Shown in pieces: positions 29,034 through 58,096 of a stretch of DNA of 64,000 bases (its first letter is position 1; each line of letters starts with the position of its first letter). A program made the translations under genes and the position numbers. Below the pieces are notes generated by a model. That model did no database searches and was not told the DNA's origin. It was given only the letters and a program-made list of their open reading frames with translations. Source of the DNA: a virus; IMG/VR virus record IMGVR_UViG_3300036761_001387, positions 3,103 to 67,102 of that record. One strand, written 5' to 3'.

Positions 29034-29380
29034 ACACGCCGATCAGGGACAAGCACGACGAGGTCGTCGGCCGCGAGAAGTACGCCCGGTGGAAGCAGGT
29101 CAGCGGAGCCAAGCCGCAGTGGCTCCAGAACGCGATCACGAACAACGGCGCGCGGCTCGAAGGCTGGGAGATCAGCTTCTTCGAGGCCTACCTGAAGGAC
29201 GCCGGGGACAGGCAGCCGGCGACGCCGCCGCTCCCCCTGCCGGTCGACGAGCCAGTGGACGGCGGCGAGGTGGGCGTGCCGGTTCAGGGCGAGCTGCCGG
29301 TCGCACCGACCGACGGCCAGCCTCCCATCCCGCCCCTGCCGGTGGTGGACGCCAGCGACTGCGTCCTGCCGGACGAGTAG
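29030..29380 (+). CDS. Hypothetical protein with Pro-rich tail
   Basis: ATGA coupling. Confidence 0.6.
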   Translation: MNTPIRDKHDEVVGREKYARWKQVSGAKPQWLQNAITNNGARLEGWEISFFEAYLKDAGDRQPATPPLPLPVDEPVDGGEVGVPVQGELPVAPTDGQPPIPPLPVVDASDCVLPDE

Positions 29381-29419
29381 AAACAGAAAAGCCCCCGGAA
29401 GCGTGAGCCTCCGGGGGCT
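29381..29419 (-). terminator. Intrinsic terminator ending the early operon
   Basis: Minus strand AGCCCCCGGA...UCCGGGGGCU then UUUCUGUUU; lies between convergent operons. Confidence 0.8.
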
Positions 29420-29692
29420 GGGTGCGCTCAGATCTGCTCGAACGTGCGAGGGTCGCGTGTCACGAGGGCGTCGCGGACCTTGATCTCTGGGTGCCGTCGC
29501 CTGAGGGCCCGGGCGGCCTTTCCCGGTGTCGGACCCCACGCCCTGACTACCTCCCTGCCGATGTCACGGATCGCCCTGTAGAGCCTCCGGGGCTCTGGCT
29601 CATGGCTCTTCATGGGAGCCTCCCTTCATTCATGGCGTGATCGCAGCCGCTCGCGGCCGGATGGATGGCGTGGGCGAGCGTATGAGGTGTTC

Positions 29693-29998
29693 TCATGGTG
29701 TACCTCTCTTTCTTGCTTCACGGTGAGCCCACGCAACCAGCTTGCGCGAGCACATCGTGCATTCGACATTGGCCTTGAACGTGAGAACGCGCGCCCAGCG
29801 TGACGGCTCACCCGGGCGTATCTCGATCTTCCGAAGGCAAAGCGTGCCGTCTCGGGCGTGCCCGGCGTAGAGGTGGCGCCGCTTCGTTCCCCGCGTGGAC
29901 GTGTACTCCGCGACGCCGACGTACGAATTCCCGACCGGCAGCCCGGCCTTTATCACGTTGATGTAGCCGCGTCCGACCTTGGCACGGTTCCACTTCAC
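29693..29998 (-). CDS. Basic hypothetical early protein
   Basis: GGAGG RBS, GTGA coupling. Confidence 0.55.
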   Translation of the reverse strand: MKWNRAKVGRGYINVIKAGLPVGNSYVGVAEYTSTRGTKRRHLYAGHARDGTLCLRKIEIRPGEPSRWARVLTFKANVECTMCSRKLVAWAHREARKRGTP

Positions 29999-30392
29999 GG
30001 GACCATCCTCCCGGCGACGTACAGGATCTGCGCGAGCTGCTCGGGGCTCGGGACGCGCGGATAGACCCGCCGCCTCGGACCCGCCTTGCAGACCCGCCAG
30101 TGCGTGCCGTGCTTGCCGTGGGCCCGCGCCCGCGAGACGAACGCGACGAGAGCCCGCCCGTGCAGGACCGCGTCGCGCTCCTCGAGAGTGAGCCCGCAGA
30201 CGTACTGGTGCATCCCGCCACTGTGGTACGCAGTGGGGCTGATGACGATGTTCACTTTGGCCCTCCCTTCTCTGCGAGCGCCTTCTCCTGACGCGCGATC
30301 TTCTGGCGCCAGATCTCTTCGCGATCCCGCGCTCTCTTCCAGAGCCGCCACGTCCGCTTCAGGTCGGCCTCGGCCCGTGCGTGCAGCTTCCC

Positions 30393-30737
30393 TCAGATCA
30401 GATTGAGCGCGAGCAGCCAGCTCGGCGCCCCGTGTTGACAGATACCGTCCGGCTCGATCCTGCAGCCGTCAACGGCCTTCGCGACAGAGTCGAACGACCA
30501 GCGGTTCAGGGCCCGCTTCCCGGGCAGCCCGTACACCGTGAACGGCGCGGGGATCCTCGTCCAGCCCTTCGCCTCGCGCCCGGCGAGCCACTGCTCGGGC
30601 TCCAGCGGCTTCGTCGCGAACGCGTTGTAGTGGGCGCGCTCGCCCTCGCCCAGACCCGGCGACATCGCGAGAACGACGCGGTGAGCGGACGAGAAGAGCG
30701 CGATGCGCCCCCCCTTGGTGCAGGCGACGGTTGCCAT
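30393..30737 (-). CDS. Phage early protein with DGCxxEPDGxCxHGxPSW motif
   Basis: Metal-binding-like C-terminal motif; ATG 16 nt after ribozyme-like copy C. Confidence 0.75.
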   Translation of the reverse strand: MATVACTKGGRIALFSSAHRVVLAMSPGLGEGERAHYNAFATKPLEPEQWLAGREAKGWTRIPAPFTVYGLPGKRALNRWSFDSVAKAVDGCRIEPDGICQHGAPSWLLALNLI

Positions 30738-30753
30738 GGTGTACTCGCTTTCC

Positions 30754-30813
30754 GCCCGGAGTTGAGACCGGGCACTCGCTTTAACGGGCCCACGAGGCCC
30801 CGCGCTCTCTGCA
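30754..30813 (-). ncRNA. Twister-like ribozyme, copy C (degenerate)
   Basis: UGCA GA GAG CGCG GGGCC UCGUG GGCCC GU UAA AGC GAG U GCCCG G U CUC AA CUC CGGGC; A-A mismatch in P2. Confidence 0.6.
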
Positions 30814-31086
30814 TTACAGGGGGCCCTTGATTCCGACGGCCGTGCAGGCCGCGCGGAAGGCGAGACGGGATTCGGAGATGATGTAACGGCGGTTAGGCTC
30901 GTCAACAGGGTTAGCGCGGCGGATCGCGTCATCCTCCATGTAGCGGATCGCCCGCACGGCGGAGAGGCCGTGGGAGCGGGCGTCCTGTACGCAACGGCGG
31001 TTCACCCCGTATGGCAGCAAGAATGGGCGAAAGGATTCCCGCCTCGCCACCCGATGGAGTCTCTTGAGACTTTCGGCTTTGGTCAT
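30814..31086 (-). CDS. Hypothetical protein (MTKAESL...GIKGPL)
   Basis: GGGAG RBS, ATG 31086. Confidence 0.6.
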   Translation of the reverse strand: MTKAESLKRLHRVARRESFRPFLLPYGVNRRCVQDARSHGLSAVRAIRYMEDDAIRRANPVDEPNRRYIISESRLAFRAACTAVGIKGPL

Positions 31087-31212
31087 AACGCTCCCTCGAT
31101 TCCCACAGCGCGGAGAGCGCAGCGGAATGCGGCGGTCCCTTGCGTCCACTCTGTCGGAATGGGTTTCCTTCGCCCATTCTGAGAGCTTGCGGAGACTGTC
31201 GGCTTTGGTCAT
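31083..31212 (-). pseudogene. Internally deleted/frameshifted paralog of 30814..31086
   Basis: MTKADSLRKL in frame 0; AFRCALRAVGIEGAL-stop in +1 frame matches AFRAACTAVGIKGPL-stop. Confidence 0.55.
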
Positions 31213-31565
31213 GGCAGCTCCCTTCATGCGACGAGGAGGCCGTCGAGGATCGCGCCCTCGACGATCGCGCCGATGTACCGATGTTCGACCGGTTTCTTCG
31301 GTGCAGCCCTTCGGGCACGGATCCCAGACGCTGGGCGTGCCCGGCCCAGCCTCCTGCTTCTGCTTGGCCCGCTCCACGTTCAGGACGTGGCCGCTGTCCA
31401 TGCAGACCGGGCAGGTGTACCGCGATGACTTGCAGGCGATGCACTGGAAGCCCTCGGCCTTGATCCGGTGGCCGGTCTGCAGTACGCGGAAGTCTTCGCC
31501 GCACTTTTCGCACTTGACGATCTTCGCGAAGGTGCGCTGCTGGGGGCGCTCGGGATTCTCGTCGC

Positions 31566-32015
31566 TCACAGCCGCACCATCTTCAGCGTGATCGACTGCC
31601 ACGCGTAGCAGACGATGATGCCGCCCGTGGCGAGCTTGTAGCCGGGGGCTCCGAGGGCGTAGGAGTATTCCCCATCCTTCATGGTCAGGGTGGCCGAGCC
31701 TTGGGGCAGCGCCACGCGCACGCTGGCGCTCGTATGGACTTCCCGCAGATCAAGCCCCGCGTTCGGGACTCGCGTCCCGGTGGCCGAGTCCTCCACGTAG
31801 AACGTCATCAGCCTCTCGGACTTCGCGTCCGGGGCGCCGACGGTTGGCGTGGGCGTGGGCGTGGGCGTCAGCCACGGCAGCGTGGGCTGGGGGGCTGGCG
31901 TCGCCGTGCGGACGGGGAAGGGCGTGGGTGTCGGGTAGACGGGCGCGACGGGGTCGTTCGCCTTGCCGCATCCGCAGAGGATCAGGGCGAGGACGAGGGG
32001 TGCGGAGTGGTTCAT
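31566..32015 (-). CDS. Lipoprotein with PT linker and beta-sandwich domain
   Basis: LILCGC lipobox, PTPTPTPT, FYVEDSATGTRVPNA...APGY. Confidence 0.75.
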   Translation of the reverse strand: MNHSAPLVLALILCGCGKANDPVAPVYPTPTPFPVRTATPAPQPTLPWLTPTPTPTPTVGAPDAKSERLMTFYVEDSATGTRVPNAGLDLREVHTSASVRVALPQGSATLTMKDGEYSYALGAPGYKLATGGIIVCYAWQSITLKMVRL

Positions 32016-32359
32016 GCTTCCCTCCATTCTTCCAGTGGGACGACGCGTCCCGGTTTGAAGATGATGGCTTCCTGCGTGAAGTAGTCGAACTCGTGCCAGC
32101 TCTGGGGGCCGGCCTTGTCGAGGGCGTCGCGCAGCTTGCGGCCCGATGCGTCGGTCAGCATGATGCGGCGCGCCGGTTCGGACTGCGCCTGCCACGAGGG
32201 CTTTCCCGTGCGCGTCCCGTCGGCGTTGTGCGCCGGCGTCGTCCACGACTTGCCCGGGTCGCAGAGGTCGGCGCTATCCCAGACGAGGATGCCACCGCGC
32301 TCCTCCAGCCATTGCGAAATGAGTGGCGCGTTCTCTTCGGAGATTCGGTGTTTCTTCAC
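32012..32359 (-). CDS. Hypothetical early protein
   Basis: GGAGG RBS, GTGA coupling. Confidence 0.7.
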   Translation of the reverse strand: MKKHRISEENAPLISQWLEERGGILVWDSADLCDPGKSWTTPAHNADGTRTGKPSWQAQSEPARRIMLTDASGRKLRDALDKAGPQSWHEFDYFTQEAIIFKPGRVVPLEEWREA

Positions 32360-32601
32360 GGCTGCACCTCCTCGTCGTCCGGATACCGCAGGATGTCGCC
32401 CGTACGCGACAGGAAGCCGTCGAGGATCAACGCTCGCGCCGCGCGCCCGTAGCTGCCCTGCAGCGTCCACGCCATGCCGTTCTTCACGAGCAGCGAGAAC
32501 AGGCGGACCGTCTGCGGCCCGTCCAGTTCGCCCTGTTCGTACGCGATGATCTCGTCGGTCAGATCGATCGACCCGTGGCCGTACTTCGCGCGTTCTTCCA
32601 T
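32356..32601 (-). CDS. Small phage early protein (AYEQGEL...AWTLQGSYGR family)
   Basis: Motif recognised from phage early genes; ATG 15 nt after ribozyme-like copy B. Confidence 0.75.
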   Translation of the reverse strand: MEERAKYGHGSIDLTDEIIAYEQGELDGPQTVRLFSLLVKNGMAWTLQGSYGRAARALILDGFLSRTGDILRYPDDEEVQP

Positions 32602-32616
32602 GGTGACCTTCTTTCC

Positions 32617-32677
32617 GCCCCGTGCTTGAGATTCGGGGCTGCGGGTTTAACGCGGGCCGAAGCCCGCGCCTCTCACC
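32617..32677 (-). ncRNA. Twister-like ribozyme, copy B
   Basis: GGU GA GAG GCGCGGGC UUCG GCCCGCGU UAA ACC CGC A GCCCCG AA U CUC AA GCA CGGGGC. Confidence 0.75.
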
Positions 32678-33098
32678 TCTTGCTCTTGCTCGCGCGCTTC
32701 TTCCACGCGGCGACCACGATCTGAAATTGCCCGGCCTCCACGACGCTCCAGCCCACGCCCGGGTTCACCGACGCGAGGTCGACGAACTCCGCGAAGGTGA
32801 GAGCGCCCTCGCCCTCCTCGCCGAATCCGGACGCATCGACGAAGACGTACGACGGGTCGCAGAGCAGGCCGTCCAGCCTGTACTGCGAGACCTTGCGGCT
32901 CGGGTAGAGGTGCTTCCTCGGGATCAGCGACCAGCCCACGGGCTTGTAGTCGCCGAGAAACGGGATCTGGCGCAGCGTCTCGTCCGCCGTGCCGTTGAGA
33001 AAGTCCTCGCGCTCCACGGCGACGGGCTGCTTCTTGGCGCGCGCCGCCTTCACGGTCGCCTGCCGGCTGAGTTCGTTGATCTGGCTGAGTGACATCAT
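32673..33098 (-). CDS. Hypothetical early protein
   Basis: AGGAG RBS; FVDASGFG...GALT...IVV pattern. Confidence 0.7.
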   Translation of the reverse strand: MMSLSQINELSRQATVKAARAKKQPVAVEREDFLNGTADETLRQIPFLGDYKPVGWSLIPRKHLYPSRKVSQYRLDGLLCDPSYVFVDASGFGEEGEGALTFAEFVDLASVNPGVGWSVVEAGQFQIVVAAWKKRASKSKR

Positions 33099-33340
33099 GG
33101 CGTGCTCCTCTTCATTTCCTCGGTTACTTCGTCGCAAATGGCAAGGTCCGCGTCCGCCCATCCGGGGATCTCAACCGAGAGCCGCGCAAAGAGCGCCGAC
33201 TGGACGCGCACAACGTCGCCGAGGGTCGTTGCTCCTATGTGGGCCACGGCCTCGCGGTAGGGTGCGCTCCCGTCCATCCGCGAGAGGGTGGTGTAGAGGG
33301 TACTGGCGGTGGGGAGGGTGAGAGTCGTGATGTCGTACAT
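33095..33340 (-). CDS. Hypothetical early protein
   Basis: AAGGAG RBS before ATG 33340. Confidence 0.65.
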   Translation of the reverse strand: MYDITTLTLPTASTLYTTLSRMDGSAPYREAVAHIGATTLGDVVRVQSALFARLSVEIPGWADADLAICDEVTEEMKRSTP

Positions 33341-33357
33341 GCTGTACTCCTTTAGTC

Positions 33358-33585
33358 CTACGAGGACGCGACCCATTGCCGGGCCTGCTCGGTGAGAGGG
33401 TGGAGCAGGTAAATCGTGCCGCCACCCGTGACCTCGAAATCGGCTCCCGGCGCCACGATGACGGGCTTGACCTTCCGCGCCTTCGGGCGCGACTTGGCGT
33501 ATCCGAGACTCACGTCGGGACTGCAGCCGCGATGCGCCAGCTCCGGGTGTTCGTTGAGAGCGATGAGCGTTCTGAGATCATGCAT
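33358..33585 (-). CDS. First gene of the early operon, hypothetical
   Basis: AGGAGG RBS. Confidence 0.7.
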   Translation of the reverse strand: MHDLRTLIALNEHPELAHRGCSPDVSLGYAKSRPKARKVKPVIVAPGADFEVTGGGTIYLLHPLTEQARQWVASS

Positions 33586-33637
33586 GGTGTCCTCCTATTT
33601 CGTTTTGGAGCGTTCGAAGGCCGCGCGTTACCGGAGT

Positions 33638-33706
33638 GCCGGGGGCTTGAGACCCGGCCGCCGCATTAACAGGGCGCCGGATCTCTCCGCCGCCCCGCCC
33701 CTCTGC
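33638..33706 (-). ncRNA. Twister-like ribozyme, copy A
   Basis: GCA GA GGG GCGGGGCG G CGGA GAGA UCCG G CGCCCUGU UAA UGC GGC G GCCGGG U CUC AA GCC CCCGGC. Confidence 0.8.
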
Positions 33707-33789
33707 TGAACCGCCCTTCCTTGGGTCGGCTGGGGTGCTGGTTGTCAAAGAGCCCCGGTGCGGGGGCCACCTTCATCGTGGCAAGTGCA

Positions 33790-33818
33790 AAGGTAGTCCT
33801 TCGTCGGACCCCTGTCAA
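33790..33818 (-). promoter_or_regulatory. sigma70 early promoter TTGACA-N17-TACCTT
   Basis: Consensus -35 with 17-bp spacer, upstream of the early operon. Confidence 0.8.
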
Positions 33819-34686
33819 GGGGCGAAAGCGAGATACCGTACGAATGATGCATCTGCATGGGGCCGTCGAGCTAAGCGTCTGCAGCCCTCAAGAGCGCGCC
33901 CAGACCTATAGCGTTGAGGCACCTTCTGTCAGATTTACGAAGAATCAGTAACTTGGGTCTGAATTGTGTAGATAAATCGACAGTCTGAGGTGCGGAAAGA
34001 TCGACACATCGACGTCCGCAAAAACGCCCTTTGACCCCAGAATCGACCCTGAAACCGGCTCGGCGGGCGCGCGGTTTTCAACAGCCGTCAAGGTGTCGTC
34101 AGCCGGCTCCGCTCGGCCCGGGGCGGGCTCGTCGAGGGGCTCGGCTTGCACCTCACGGGTACATACCGGACGCGTAATTTCGCCTGTGGAATCGCCAGAT
34201 GGTGATGGTCTGTCAAGTCGCCCGAGGCGTAAGTGCCGGAGCCTTTAGAATCAACGGCTTCCGCGCTGCGTTAGCACGGTTCGGGCATGGCGCTGCGGCC
34301 GATACCGTGTATTATGTCAAAGCTTTTTCGTCGATTGGCGGGGCTTTCGGGCCGCTTTCGTCCGACGCGTGCGTACTCGGACGCTGGGCGCAAGTCGCCC
34401 TGCGGGTGTCGGGTCGCCTCGATCGGGGGTGCTGCCGGCGCGCCACGCGGCGAGCGCTTCGAGGCCGGGCAGCCCGGGCGCCGCCTCGTGGACGGACCGC
34501 GCGCCCTCGTCCCGGGCAGGACCCCCCGGGGGGAGGGGGTATGCCCTCGGGATCCGGGTCCCATCTTTCCGGGTCCCATCCGGCCCTCTCGCCACGCTAA
34601 ACCCCAAAGGACGGGTATATACCATTGTCCTCGCAAAGTCTATGCAGAAGAGCACGTTACGGTGGGTGAAGCAGAACCAACCGGTT

Positions 34687-56833: not shown

Positions 56834-58096
56834 ATGGCTGTTATGAACGCCGCTGCGGTAGACGCCCTTCTGAAGGAGCGCTATCGCAAGGCTGTCCCGC
56901 AACTCTACGAGTCGGCCAAGACCTTCTGCGGCCGTCTCAAGAAGCGGGAAGATGTCGAACTCGTCGGTCGCCGGACCATCCGCGCGGCCAAGAAGCTGAA
57001 GCCCGGTGGTCAGTTCCGGACGTTCAACCCGGACGGCGGAGACCTCGGCCGCGGCGCTGGCGCGAACTACCAGTACACCACGATGACCACCCTCCCGCTC
57101 CTCCTCGCGCTCGAGAAGACCAAGAGCGCGATGTGGGAGACCGAACAGAGCGAGCTGTCGATCAAGAACGCCGTGCAGGAGCAGCTCACCGACGGCGTCT
57201 CCGAGTTCCAGTCGCACTGCGACCGCCACCTCCAGACGGACGGCACCGGCGCCCTCTGCCAGATCGCCTCGGGGCAGGGTACTGCCACACTCACGATGAC
57301 GACCCCCTACCGCTCGCGTCTCGTCCGTGAGAACAACCGGTACAGCATCTACGATTCCGGCCTCACCACGAACCGCGGAATCGTCGAGATCGACCAGAAC
57401 AACATGGAGACGGGCGTCGTCACGCTCATCAACAGCCCGGTCAACCCGGTCGTCGCGCTCACGCAGGCGAACGACTACTTCCTCGTCGACAACATCACCG
57501 GCGCGAACCCGACGTGGATCTACGGTCTGCGCTACCACCACAACAACGCGGCCTCGGGCTTCTGGATGGGCCTGAACCGCGCGAACGTCGCTCAGGTCCG
57601 CACCGTCGCCGTCAACGCGAACGGCCCCCTGAACGCCGTCCACTTCCGGCAGCTCAAGAACCGGATGCTGCTGCTCCGTGACGACTGCTTCTCCTCGGGC
57701 TCGTGGAGCTGGTACATGGCTCCCCAGCAGCAGCAGGCGTACGAAGAGCTGTCGCTCCAGATCACGAGCCGCCGCCGGCAGGGCACCACGCAGGAAGGCC
57801 CGGAGCTTCTCGACGACGTCGACCAGCTTCGGATCGACGGCATGGAAGCCGTGATCAACCCCAACGCCAACCCGTCGATCATCGACCTCATCCGCTGGGA
57901 CAACTGGTGGAGGGGTGAGACCGTCGAGTTCGGCCTCTACACCGTCGACGAGATCGACACGTTCCCGATCTACGGCGCCTCCGGCGGTATCGCCGCGGCC
58001 GACGTCATGTACTTCTGCCAGCTGGCCCAGTGGGGCGTCGACGACCCGCGCATGGGTGGGTACATCTACGGAGCTACGGTTCCGAGCGGATACTGA
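56834..58096 (+). CDS. Major capsid protein
   Basis: 420 aa, strongest codon bias, AAGGAG RBS, LQTDGTGAL motif, follows the scaffold. Confidence 0.85.
   Translation: MAVMNAAAVDALLKERYRKAVPQLYESAKTFCGRLKKREDVELVGRRTIRAAKKLKPGGQFRTFNPDGGDLGRGAGANYQYTTMTTLPLLLALEKTKSAMWETEQSELSIKNAVQEQLTDGVSEFQSHCDRHLQTDGTGALCQIASGQGTATLTMTTPYRSRLVRENNRYSIYDSGLTTNRGIVEIDQNNMETGVVTLINSPVNPVVALTQANDYFLVDNITGANPTWIYGLRYHHNNAASGFWMGLNRANVAQVRTVAVNANGPLNAVHFRQLKNRMLLLRDDCFSSGSWSWYMAPQQQQAYEELSLQITSRRRQGTTQEGPELLDDVDQLRIDGMEAVINPNANPSIIDLIRWDNWWRGETVEFGLYTVDEIDTFPIYGASGGIAAADVMYFCQLAQWGVDDPRMGGYIYGATVPSGY

What the first reader, a model, noticed from the sequence alone, without database searches (positions are those of the whole stretch)
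30754..33706. Three permuted twister-like ribozymes punctuate the phage early mRNA
Seen: three intergenic minus-strand elements (A 33706-33638, B 32677-32617, C 30813-30754) share one register: P2'-GA-G(A/G)G-[P1 hairpin]-UAA-P2-T2-N-P4-U-CUC-AA-T2'-P4'. The stems differ in sequence but keep pairing. P2 is UGC/GCA (A) and ACC/GGU (B). T2 is GGC/GCC (A), GAG/CUC (C) and GC/GC (B). T1 is CUC with GGG or GAG. P1 is capped by GAGA (A) and cUUCGg (B) tetraloops on the transcribed strand. Each element is followed by a gene start in the context CACCATG (52, 15 and 16 nt away), and all lie between the TTGACA promoter (33818) and the terminator (29381-29419). Established: this is the twister ribozyme core (U^A cleavage in UAA, general-base G after P2', two pseudoknots). 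Inference: the phage cuts its own polycistronic host-takeover transcript into 5'-OH segments, a protein-free analogue of RNase III processing of T7 early mRNA. Predicted cuts are 33668/33667, 32649/32648 and 30783/30782.
Basis: partly seen in the sequence, partly recalled or inferred. Interest (0 to 1): 0.93.

Follow-up and report, generated by a model that had tools for sequence, protein, structure and literature searches.

The report
Three twister ribozymes in phage operon
Three copies of a known self-cutting RNA, the type-P5 twister ribozyme, sit at the main gaps of one operon of small genes in an uncultivated phage and probably cut its long message into three gene blocks, a small, clean example of an arrangement already described for phages.

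Summary
Rfam's Twister-P5 model (RF02684, gathering score 37.6) matches all three minus-strand elements over its full length. A scores 45.4 bits, B 30.7 and C 24.8. These are the only hits at E<=1 among 4227 families in the 64-kb window.

The model does not score the two pseudoknots, yet both are intact in all three copies. T2 is changed on both sides in C (AG/CU instead of GC/GC).

B and C fill the operon's two largest gaps between genes. B overlaps the upstream stop codon and C begins directly after one. Each is followed 15-16 nt later by a start codon. A lies in the leader.

Nine same-subtype elements in eight metagenome contigs show the same stop-ribozyme-ribosome-site-start layout.

Cleavage itself is inferred, not shown. 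C has an A/A mismatch beside the core. The 'early/host-takeover' label and the promoter are unsupported.

Clustered ribozymes flanking phage genes were described in 2011. This scan has already noted such twister arrays on other DNA, some with about 15 copies. Verdict: a new member of a known kind, of modest interest.

The parts
33638..33707 (-). Twister ribozyme A (type P5), in the leader 52 nt upstream of the first gene's ATG. Predicted cut between 33668 and 33667.
   Evidence: RF02684 at 45.4 bits, above the gathering score of 37.6. P2 GCA/UGC; P1 is 8 bp plus a 4-bp extension with a GAGA loop; P4 GCCGGG/CCCGGC; T1 GGG:CUC; T2 GC/GC. The MFE fold is essentially the twister 2D fold: -39.3 against -37.7 kcal/mol, which differ by one extra P1 pair.
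32617..32678 (-). Twister ribozyme B (type P5). It overlaps the TGA stop (32675-32673) of the upstream gene and lies 15 nt before the next ATG. Predicted cut between 32649 and 32648.
   Evidence: RF02684 at 30.7 bits, full length, below the gathering score. E=4.3e-6 in its own record. P2 GGU/ACC; P1 is 8 bp with a UUCG loop; P4 GCCCCG/CGGGGC; T1 GAG:CUC; T2 GC/GC; two extra A's in L4. MFE -30.8 against -30.0 for the twister fold.
30754..30813 (-). Twister ribozyme C (type P5). It begins on the base after the TAA stop (30816-30814) and lies 16 nt before the next ATG. Predicted cut between 30783 and 30782. This is the weakest copy.
   Evidence: RF02684 at 24.8 bits, full length. E=1.3e-4 in its own record. 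T2 AG/CU is changed on both sides and still pairs. T1 GAG:CUC; P4 GCCCGG/CCGGGC. P2 is U.G, G-C, C-G with A/A innermost. P1 is 5 bp, a G/G mismatch, then 2 bp, with one extra C. The twister fold is 0.8 kcal/mol above the MFE.
32673..33585 (-). Gene block 1 between cuts A and B: three small ORFs (33585-33358, 33340-33095, 33098-32673). The last two overlap by 4 nt.
   Evidence: ORF list and sequence. No Pfam or PHROG family.
30814..32601 (-). Gene block 2 between cuts B and C: four ORFs joined by 4-nt overlaps. 32601-32356 is DUF7417. The others are 32359-32012, 32015-31566 (lipoprotein-like N-terminus, read by eye) and 31569-30814.
   Evidence: DUF7417 at 1.6e-23 and phrog_3908 at 1.9e-23 for the first ORF only.
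29428..30737 (-). Gene block 3 after cut C: small ORFs 30737-30393, 30351-29995, 29998-29693, a 28-codon ORF from 29696, and 29613-29428.
   Evidence: No family for the three ORFs that were scanned.
29380..29419 (-). Intrinsic-terminator-like hairpin and T-run that close the operon.
   Evidence: 13-pair stem at 29419..29390 with 10 G-C pairs, followed by TTTCTGTTTC.
33708..34686 (-). Upstream stretch of about 1 kb, not tested for coding, holding 4 of the window's 6 TTGACA hexamers, all in the operon's orientation. Candidate promoter region, not verified.
   Evidence: TTGACA at 33748, 33818, 34216 and 34320 on the minus strand. The promoter scan calls none of them. Sequence read.

Best explanation
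The three elements are genuine type-P5 twister self-cleaving ribozymes embedded in one phage transcript.

Shown:
- The motif, its stems and both pseudoknots are present.
- The conserved core (GA, UAA, UCUCAA) is present.
- B and C sit exactly at stop-to-start junctions.

Inferred: as the minus-strand message is made, each element folds and cuts itself between U and A of UAA.
- Ribozyme A removes the leader.
- B and C divide the message into three blocks of genes. Within each block most genes stay translationally coupled through 4-nt overlaps.
- In the P5 permutation the closed, GC-rich P1 hairpin lies 5' of the cut. Each upstream piece therefore ends in stop codon, P1 hairpin and a 2',3'-cyclic phosphate.
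- Each downstream piece starts with a 5'-OH and the 6-bp P4 hairpin, followed closely by the ribosome-binding site and ATG.

The likely effect is that the blocks get their own stability and translation, independent of their neighbours. A and B are probably active. C is less certain.
For: - Rfam Twister-P5 matches over the full model length at 45.4, 30.7 and 24.8 bits. These are the only hits at E<=1 in the 64-kb window, and all three are on the strand of the operon.
- Pseudoknots, which the covariance model does not score, are complementary in 3 of 3 copies. T2 in C is changed on both sides.
- Among the three copies, P2 (GCA/UGC against GGU/ACC) and the inner P4 pairs (GG/CC, CC/GG, CG/CG) differ by compensatory changes.
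- With the 6-bp P4 included, the minimum-energy fold is the twister 2D fold, or lies within 1.6 kcal/mol of it, for all three.
- Same-subtype elements from metagenomes: 8 Twister-P5 hits in 7 of the 14 loci given to cmscan, 5 of them above the gathering score.
- Over 12 elements T2 pairs in 12 of 12, with 7 different pair types. Cross-combinations pair in 52 of 132, and 0 of 20000 shuffles reach the observed count.
- Layout: in 11 of 12 elements an upstream frame open for at least 60 codons stops within -6..+7 nt of the element. In 11 of 12 a start follows 14-52 nt after P4'. In L035 two twisters flank one 59-aa gene.
- Negative control: none of the pattern matches in 6 viral and 32 reference-genome loci passes the stem screen.
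- Phage context: RecT, tail fibre, terminase-like, portal and HNH hits, in an IMG/VR virus record.
- A synthetic twister placed between cistrons is cleaved in E. coli. It gave good expression only once a stem-loop was placed upstream of the cut (PMC9872166, passages). The P1 hairpin supplies such a stem-loop here.
Against: - No cleavage data. No RNA run was available to me.
- B and C score below Rfam's gathering threshold of 37.6.
- At E<=1, 7 of 14 control genomes also give weak Twister-P5 matches, though none above the cut-off. Weak hits alone mean little.
- C has an A/A mismatch at the P2 pair next to the active site, a G/G mismatch and an extra C in P1, and U instead of the consensus A after T2.
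- B has a 2-nt insertion in loop L4.
- No close relative of this phage was found, so conservation at these three sites could not be tested. Three of the four protein-based scans of viral contigs gave 0-1 loci. The fourth, with the DUF7417 gene, gave 7 loci, and 0 of the 5 records searched hold a twister. L004 has none.
- The metagenome elements were picked with a pattern that fixes T1 and part of P4, then by pairing or by the model. Only T2 and the gene context are unbiased, and my parse allowed a 1-nt register choice for T2.
- L083 is counted among the 12 although cmscan did not report it at E<=1.
- The transcript's start and its unity as one operon are inferred from gene order only.
Confidence: 0.72

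Rival explanations
1. Mixed array. A, and probably B, is an active ribozyme, but C, and possibly B, is a decayed copy that no longer cuts. It would survive only as an intercistronic hairpin pair, acting as an mRNA stabiliser or spacer.
For: C scores 24.8 bits and B 30.7, against a gathering score of 37.6. C has A/A at the innermost P2 pair, G/G in P1 and an inserted C. B has two extra A's in L4.
Against: - All unpaired consensus core letters other than T2 and the base after it are kept in C, and T2 is changed on both sides so that it still pairs. That is not expected of a decaying copy.
- The review's abstract states that twister keeps wild-type activity with P1 deleted (PMC5408937), so the P1 defects matter little.
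- Another element with one extra base at the same L4 position scores 37.1 bits (L025).
Confidence: 0.2
2. The ribozymes mainly mark the joints of exchangeable gene cassettes, as recombination or mobility scars. Any effect on expression is secondary.
For: The ribozymes bound blocks of ORFan genes. B and C share their 3' flank GGCGGAAAG.
Against: - Homologues of the gene just downstream of B occur without any twister. Of the 7 loci found, 5 records were searched and 0 hold one.
- The partial homologue of the gene after C also has none within 8 kb.
- So no cassette-with-ribozyme unit is seen here.
- The shared flank is the end of P4' plus a ribosome-binding site.
Confidence: 0.06
3. Chance resemblance. 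The elements are ordinary GC-rich intergenic hairpins or attenuators that happen to fit the twister model.
For: The DNA is about 65% G+C, and stems form easily in such sequence. Weak Twister-P5 matches at E<=1 occur in 7 of 14 control genomes.
Against: - A is above the curated threshold.
- The three are the only hits in 128 kb of both strands. They share strand and operon and fill the two largest gaps between genes.
- The unmodelled pseudoknots pair in all three.
- None of the chance pattern matches in 38 loci elsewhere forms the stems.
Confidence: 0.02

Closest known systems
Type-P5 twister self-cleaving ribozyme (Rfam RF02684). The class was defined by Roth et al. 2014, which I saw only as reviewed in PMC5408937 (parts 1-2 read).
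   Same: Stems P1, P2 and P4, pseudoknots T1 and T2, the conserved loop letters, the U-A cleavage step next to P1, and the P5 permutation, in which the chain enters at P2', leaves after P4' and P1 is closed by a loop.
   Different: - No P3 and no P5 stem at all.
- P4 is lengthened to 6 bp.
- The middle pair of T1 is A-U or G.U (loop CUC) instead of the consensus G-C.
- B and C fall below the family's gathering score.
Clustered hammerhead ribozymes flanking genes or short gene blocks in prophages (Perreault et al. 2011, PMC3088659, passages read).
   Same: Several self-cleaving ribozymes lie close together on one strand and bound single genes or short blocks of phage genes. The proposed role is processing long phage transcripts into operon- or gene-length mRNAs. 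Triple arrangements were cleaved in vitro in that paper.
   Different: The ribozyme class differs (twister, not hammerhead). Nothing was assayed here. That paper's figures and supplements were not visible to me.
Synthetic ribozyme-assisted polycistronic expression, pRAP (PMC9872166, passages read).
   Same: A twister sits between cistrons, just upstream of the ribosome-binding site. Released cistrons need a 3' stem-loop to be expressed.
   Different: pRAP is engineered and uses a twister that cuts at its own 5' end, plus an added stem-loop. The natural type-P5 form has that hairpin (P1) built in on the 5' side of the cut.
RNase III processing of the phage T7 early polycistronic mRNA (recalled from my own knowledge; no call).
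   Same: A phage message is cut at intercistronic structured sites into separately stable pieces that end in hairpins.
   Different: T7 relies on a host protein nuclease that recognises double-stranded sites and leaves 5'-phosphate and 3'-OH ends. Here the RNA would cut itself and leave 5'-OH and a 2',3'-cyclic phosphate. This is an analogy only, not membership.

Membership tests
Twister ribozyme, type P5 (RF02684) | Score at or above Rfam's curated gathering threshold (37.6 bits) | tested here: met
   Copy A: 45.4 bits, model positions 1-58 of 58.
Twister ribozyme, type P5 (RF02684) | Score at or above the gathering threshold, copies B and C | tested here: not met
   B 30.7 bits and C 24.8 bits, both full length. 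E=4.3e-6 and 1.3e-4 in the 67-kb record. Points are lost to covaried P2 and T2 letters and to small insertions, not to the core.
Twister ribozyme, type P5 (RF02684) | [quoted passage not shown] | tested here: met
   A and B: P2 3 bp, P1 8 bp or more, P4 6 bp. C: P2 3 pairs with an A/A mismatch innermost, P1 5+2 bp with a G/G mismatch, P4 6 bp.
Twister ribozyme, type P5 (RF02684) | Two pseudoknots T1 and T2 joining loop L1 and the strand after P2 to loop L4 | tested here: met
   T1 is GGG:CUC in A and GAG:CUC in B and C. T2 is GC/GC in A and B and AG/CU in C. T2 pairs in 12 of 12 elements of the subtype, against 52 of 132 cross-combinations.
Twister ribozyme, type P5 (RF02684) | Strongly conserved loop nucleotides, and the U-A cleavage step adjoining P1 | tested here: met
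   Compared with the upper-case consensus letters of the Rfam model. GAG.G, UAA and UC.CAA are kept in all three. Deviations: A has G for the consensus A after T2. C has AG/CU for GC/GC (compensated) and U for that A.
Twister ribozyme, type P5 (RF02684) | P5 circular permutation (termini on the P5 side, P1 closed) | tested here: met
   The chain enters at P2' and leaves after P4', and P1 is a closed hairpin. No P5 stem forms in folds with flanks. P5 is optional.
Twister ribozyme, type P5 (RF02684) | Site-specific self-cleavage giving 2',3'-cyclic phosphate and 5'-OH ends | not testable with these tools
Clustered ribozymes flanking phage genes (Perreault 2011 arrangement) | Several ribozymes close together on one strand, bounding genes or short gene blocks in a phage or prophage | tested here: met
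   Three copies within 2.95 kb on the minus strand bound blocks of 3 and 4 ORFs. Phage hallmark genes are present, and the record is a virus record.
RNase III sites of T7 early mRNA | Cleavage by host RNase III at double-stranded processing sites | not tested
The elements match a self-cleaving ribozyme model instead.

The most novel reading that the evidence does not exclude
The P5 permutation is the form used at gene junctions because it hands a ready-made protective hairpin to both products: P1 at the 3' end of the upstream piece and P4 plus 5'-OH at the 5' end of the downstream piece. In addition, cleavage is gated by translation. In B, and in two unrelated metagenome elements (L046 and L066), the upstream gene's UGA stop is built from the last P2' base plus the conserved GA of the core. 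A terminating ribosome would then have to leave before the ribozyme can fold and cut, which would couple mRNA processing to completed translation of the upstream gene.
Probability: 0.15. Interest if true: 0.55.

Novelty: new member of a known kind. Interest (0 to 1): 0.3.

Why it matters
The biological role of bacterial and phage twister ribozymes is still described as undetermined (2019 review PMC6765202, passages). This operon is a compact natural test case. It has one copy in the leader and two at stop-to-start junctions, and the three copies differ in quality (45, 31 and 25 bits). It could be used to ask two questions: whether weak-scoring copies with compensated pseudoknots still cut, and whether cutting changes the stability or translation of the flanking gene blocks. 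It adds no new principle. The arrangement has been proposed since 2011, and this scan has already found larger arrays on other DNA.

Tried and rejected
- Relatives of the phage, to test conservation at the three sites. Protein-based scans of viral contigs with the genes beside the ribozymes gave 0 loci and 1 locus (L004), which has no twister at E<=1.
- The DUF7417 gene gave 7 loci. I searched the whole records of 5 of the 7, and 0 of 5 hold a Twister-P5 match at E<=1. L016 and L017 were not searched.
- GenBank phages: the 420-aa ORF 56834-58096, which has no PHROG hit, gave no match. The operon DNA matched only 138 nt of the DUF7417 gene in 45 Streptomyces phage records.
- Pattern scans. Viral contigs gave 6 hits, none of them a twister. 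Reference genomes gave 32 loci, and none passes the stem screen. Metagenomes gave 69 loci. I passed only 14 of the 69 to cmscan, namely those with partial pairing. Seven of the 14 hold Twister-P5 hits and 7 do not: L018, L026, L040, L041, L069, L083 and L086. I kept L083 in the 12-element tables because it parses well.
- A covariance model of my own and the count of structure pairs. I dropped both because MAFFT misaligned the 5' register and the variable P1 hairpins (alignments A1-A3). I parsed the elements by script instead. That parse picks the best of a few registers and so leans towards pairing.
- Other ribozyme classes or decayed copies in the window: none at E<=1.
- Promoter. The scan calls nothing at 33818. 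It calls a weak site at 30905..30878 inside the gene before C. I did not pursue this.
- RNA evidence. No RNA holder was listed for 29300-34000.
- Papers. Roth et al. 2014 and Felletti et al. 2017 are not held and are cited only through reviews.
- The statements on T7 RNase III are recalled, not from a call.

Full report
WHAT THE WINDOW IS. The window is bases 3103-67102 of a 67.1-kb IMG/VR virus record that CheckV rates 52% complete. Its G+C content is about 65%. PHROG hits to RecT, tail fibre, terminase-like, portal and HNH endonuclease proteins show that it is a tailed phage. It has no close relative in GenBank phages.

THE OBSERVATION. Rfam's covariance model for the type-P5 twister ribozyme (RF02684, gathering score 37.6 bits) matches the minus strand three times:
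- A at 33707..33640, 45.4 bits;
- B at 32678..32619, 30.7 bits;
- C at 30813..30756, 24.8 bits.

Each match covers all 58 model positions. In a permissive scan of the whole window against all 4227 families, these are the only three hits at E<=1. For this family alone, in the phage's own record, the E-values are 7.6e-10, 4.3e-6 and 1.3e-4. The same call shows that weak matches at E<=1 occur in 7 of 14 control genomes. B and C therefore need support beyond their scores.

That support comes from features the model does not score.
- Pseudoknot T1 is complementary in all three copies. Loop L4 carries CUC, facing GGG in A and GAG in B and C.
- Pseudoknot T2 is GC/GC in A and B but AG/CU in C. Both pairs have changed and both still pair.
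- P2 differs between A (GCA/UGC) and B (GGU/ACC) by compensatory changes. So do the inner two pairs of P4: GG/CC, CC/GG and CG/CG.
- P4 extends to 6 bp in all three copies (GCCNNG/CNNGGC), beyond the end of the Rfam model.
- With that extension included, the minimum-energy fold is the twister secondary structure, or lies within 1.6 kcal/mol of it. The values are A -39.3 against -37.7, B -30.8 against -30.0, and C -26.2 against -25.4.

No P5 stem forms. P5 is optional in the class (PMC5408937).

DEFECTS.
- C has an A/A mismatch at the P2 pair next to UAA, a G/G mismatch and an extra C in P1, and U where the consensus has A after T2.
- B has two extra A's at the 5' side of L4.
- A has G for that same consensus A.
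- The review's abstract states that twister keeps wild-type activity with P1 deleted. The P1 defects therefore weigh little. The P2 mismatch in C is the main doubt.

SETTING.
- The minus-strand genes from 33585 to 29428 are small, and several are joined by 4-nt overlaps.
- Of the 10 proteins scanned, only one has a family, DUF7417 / phrog_3908.
- The operon's two largest gaps between genes are 71 nt (32672-32602) and 76 nt (30813-30738), by my count. B and C fill them.
- B overlaps the TGA stop of the gene before it. That stop is made of the last P2' base plus the conserved GA. C starts on the base after a TAA stop.
- A lies in the leader, 52 nt before the first ATG, with no credible gene before it.
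- A terminator-like hairpin with a T-run closes the block at 29419-29380.
- Predicted cleavage would give a leader and then pieces of about 1019, 1866 and 1400 nt, carrying 3, 4 and about 5 ORFs.

The claimed promoter at 33818 is not called by the scan. However, 4 of the window's 6 TTGACA hexamers lie in the operon's orientation within 33743-34320. The roughly 1-kb stretch upstream of A may therefore hold promoters. 'Early' and 'host-takeover' are guesses. CACCATG is a general start context of this phage, with 15 copies against 3.7 expected, and is not tied to the ribozymes.

RELATIVES.
- I found no close relative of the phage. Records holding homologues of the DUF7417 gene lack twisters: 0 of the 5 searched, out of 7 loci found.
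- I built a pattern from the positions shared by the three copies, with the stems left free. It found only chance matches in viral contigs (6 hits, 0 twisters) and in reference genomes (32 loci, 0 passing a stem screen).
- In metagenome contigs the pattern gave 69 loci. I passed 14 to cmscan on the basis of partial pairing. Seven hold Twister-P5 hits, 8 in all, and 5 of those are above the gathering score.
- I added L083, which parses well although cmscan did not report it. Together with the three window copies this gives 12 elements.
- Over these 12 elements T2 pairs in 12 of 12, with 7 pair types. Cross-combinations pair in 52 of 132, and 0 of 20000 shuffles reach the observed count.

The limits of this comparison are as follows. 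The pattern fixes T1 and part of P4. The selection used stems. My parse allowed a small choice of register. L035a, L035b and L076 share most of their core sequence and may not be independent. The gene context was not used in the selection, and it is uniform.
- In 11 of 12 elements an upstream open frame stops within -6..+7 nt of the element.
- In 11 of 12 a start codon follows 14-52 nt after P4', in most cases preceded by a purine-rich ribosome-binding site.
- In L035 two twisters flank one 59-aa gene.
- The UGA-inside-the-core arrangement of B recurs in L046 and L066, so it is seen in 3 of 12 elements.

MECHANISM. This is inferred from the anatomy.
- Each ribozyme cuts itself between U and A of UAA.
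- In the P5 permutation the closed P1 hairpin lies 5' of the cut. The upstream product therefore ends in stop codon, P1 hairpin and a cyclic phosphate.
- The downstream product begins with 5'-OH, the P2 and T2 strands and the P4 hairpin, just before the ribosome-binding site.
- An engineered system that places a twister between cistrons in E. coli showed cleavage in vivo. It showed good expression only when a stem-loop was added upstream of the cut (PMC9872166). The natural type-P5 form carries that stem-loop as P1.
- The likely result is three gene blocks with independent stability and translation.
- I cannot predict whether 5'-OH ends stabilise or destabilise the pieces in this phage's unknown host.

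WHAT IS KNOWN.
- Perreault et al. 2011 reported multiple hammerheads flanking genes or short gene blocks in prophages. They proposed processing of long phage transcripts and showed cleavage of triple arrangements (PMC3088659, passages).
[quoted passage not shown] It also says the purpose remains undefined (PMC6765202, passages).
- Earlier notes of this scan report the same arrangement on other DNA. 342 notes in at least 247 genomes hold my search words, and they include arrays of 7, 11 and about 15 type-P5 twisters and the stop-flush layout. I treat these as leads. The layout claim I re-tested here.

VERDICT. The 'early/host-takeover' and promoter parts are unsupported, and it is not new. This is a small, tidy new member of a known kind. 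Interest is 0.3. Its value is as a test case with three copies of graded quality.

Noticed in passing
window 33743-34320 (minus strand): Four of the window's six TTGACA hexamers cluster here in the operon's orientation, inside a stretch of about 1 kb upstream of ribozyme A that I did not test for coding. TTGACA is otherwise under-represented (6 found, 11.4 expected). No convincing -10 follows any of them. They may be tandem promoters or operator sites.
   Followed up: partly
window 32673-32678; L046 1930-1937; L066 1899-1906: The upstream gene's UGA stop is formed by the last P2' base plus the conserved GA of the twister core. This is seen in 3 of 12 elements of this subtype, so a terminating ribosome would sit on the ribozyme's 5' half.
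   Followed up: partly
L035 699-1026: In an unrelated metagenome contig, two type-P5 twisters (48.6 and 34.8 bits) flank a single 59-aa gene. Each lies between a stop codon and an AAAGGAG ribosome-binding site.
   Followed up: partly
window 31066-31212 (minus strand): A 21-nt direct repeat 126 nt apart inside the 251-aa ORF 31569-30814 encodes two similar ATG-led peptide starts (MTKADSL / MTKAESL) in the same frame. This suggests an internal duplication or internal starts.
   Followed up: no
window, 15 sites (e.g. 29694, 30735, 32599, 33583): CACCATG is four-fold enriched in the window (15 against 3.7 expected), including at four gene starts in this operon. It looks like a phage-wide start-codon context.
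   Followed up: partly
window 30878-30905 (minus strand): A promoter-like site (TTGACG, 16 nt, CATCAT) lies inside the end of the gene before ribozyme C, about 60 nt upstream of it. It is a consensus match only.
   Followed up: no
window 32417-32554: The DUF7417 gene after ribozyme B is the only part of the operon with DNA similarity to GenBank phages: about 73% identity over 138 nt to 45 Streptomyces phage records.
   Followed up: no
L076 11739-11893: The metagenome contig that carries the best-scoring relative of these twisters (52.1 bits) also has two adjacent tRNA genes, which fits a phage origin.
   Followed up: no
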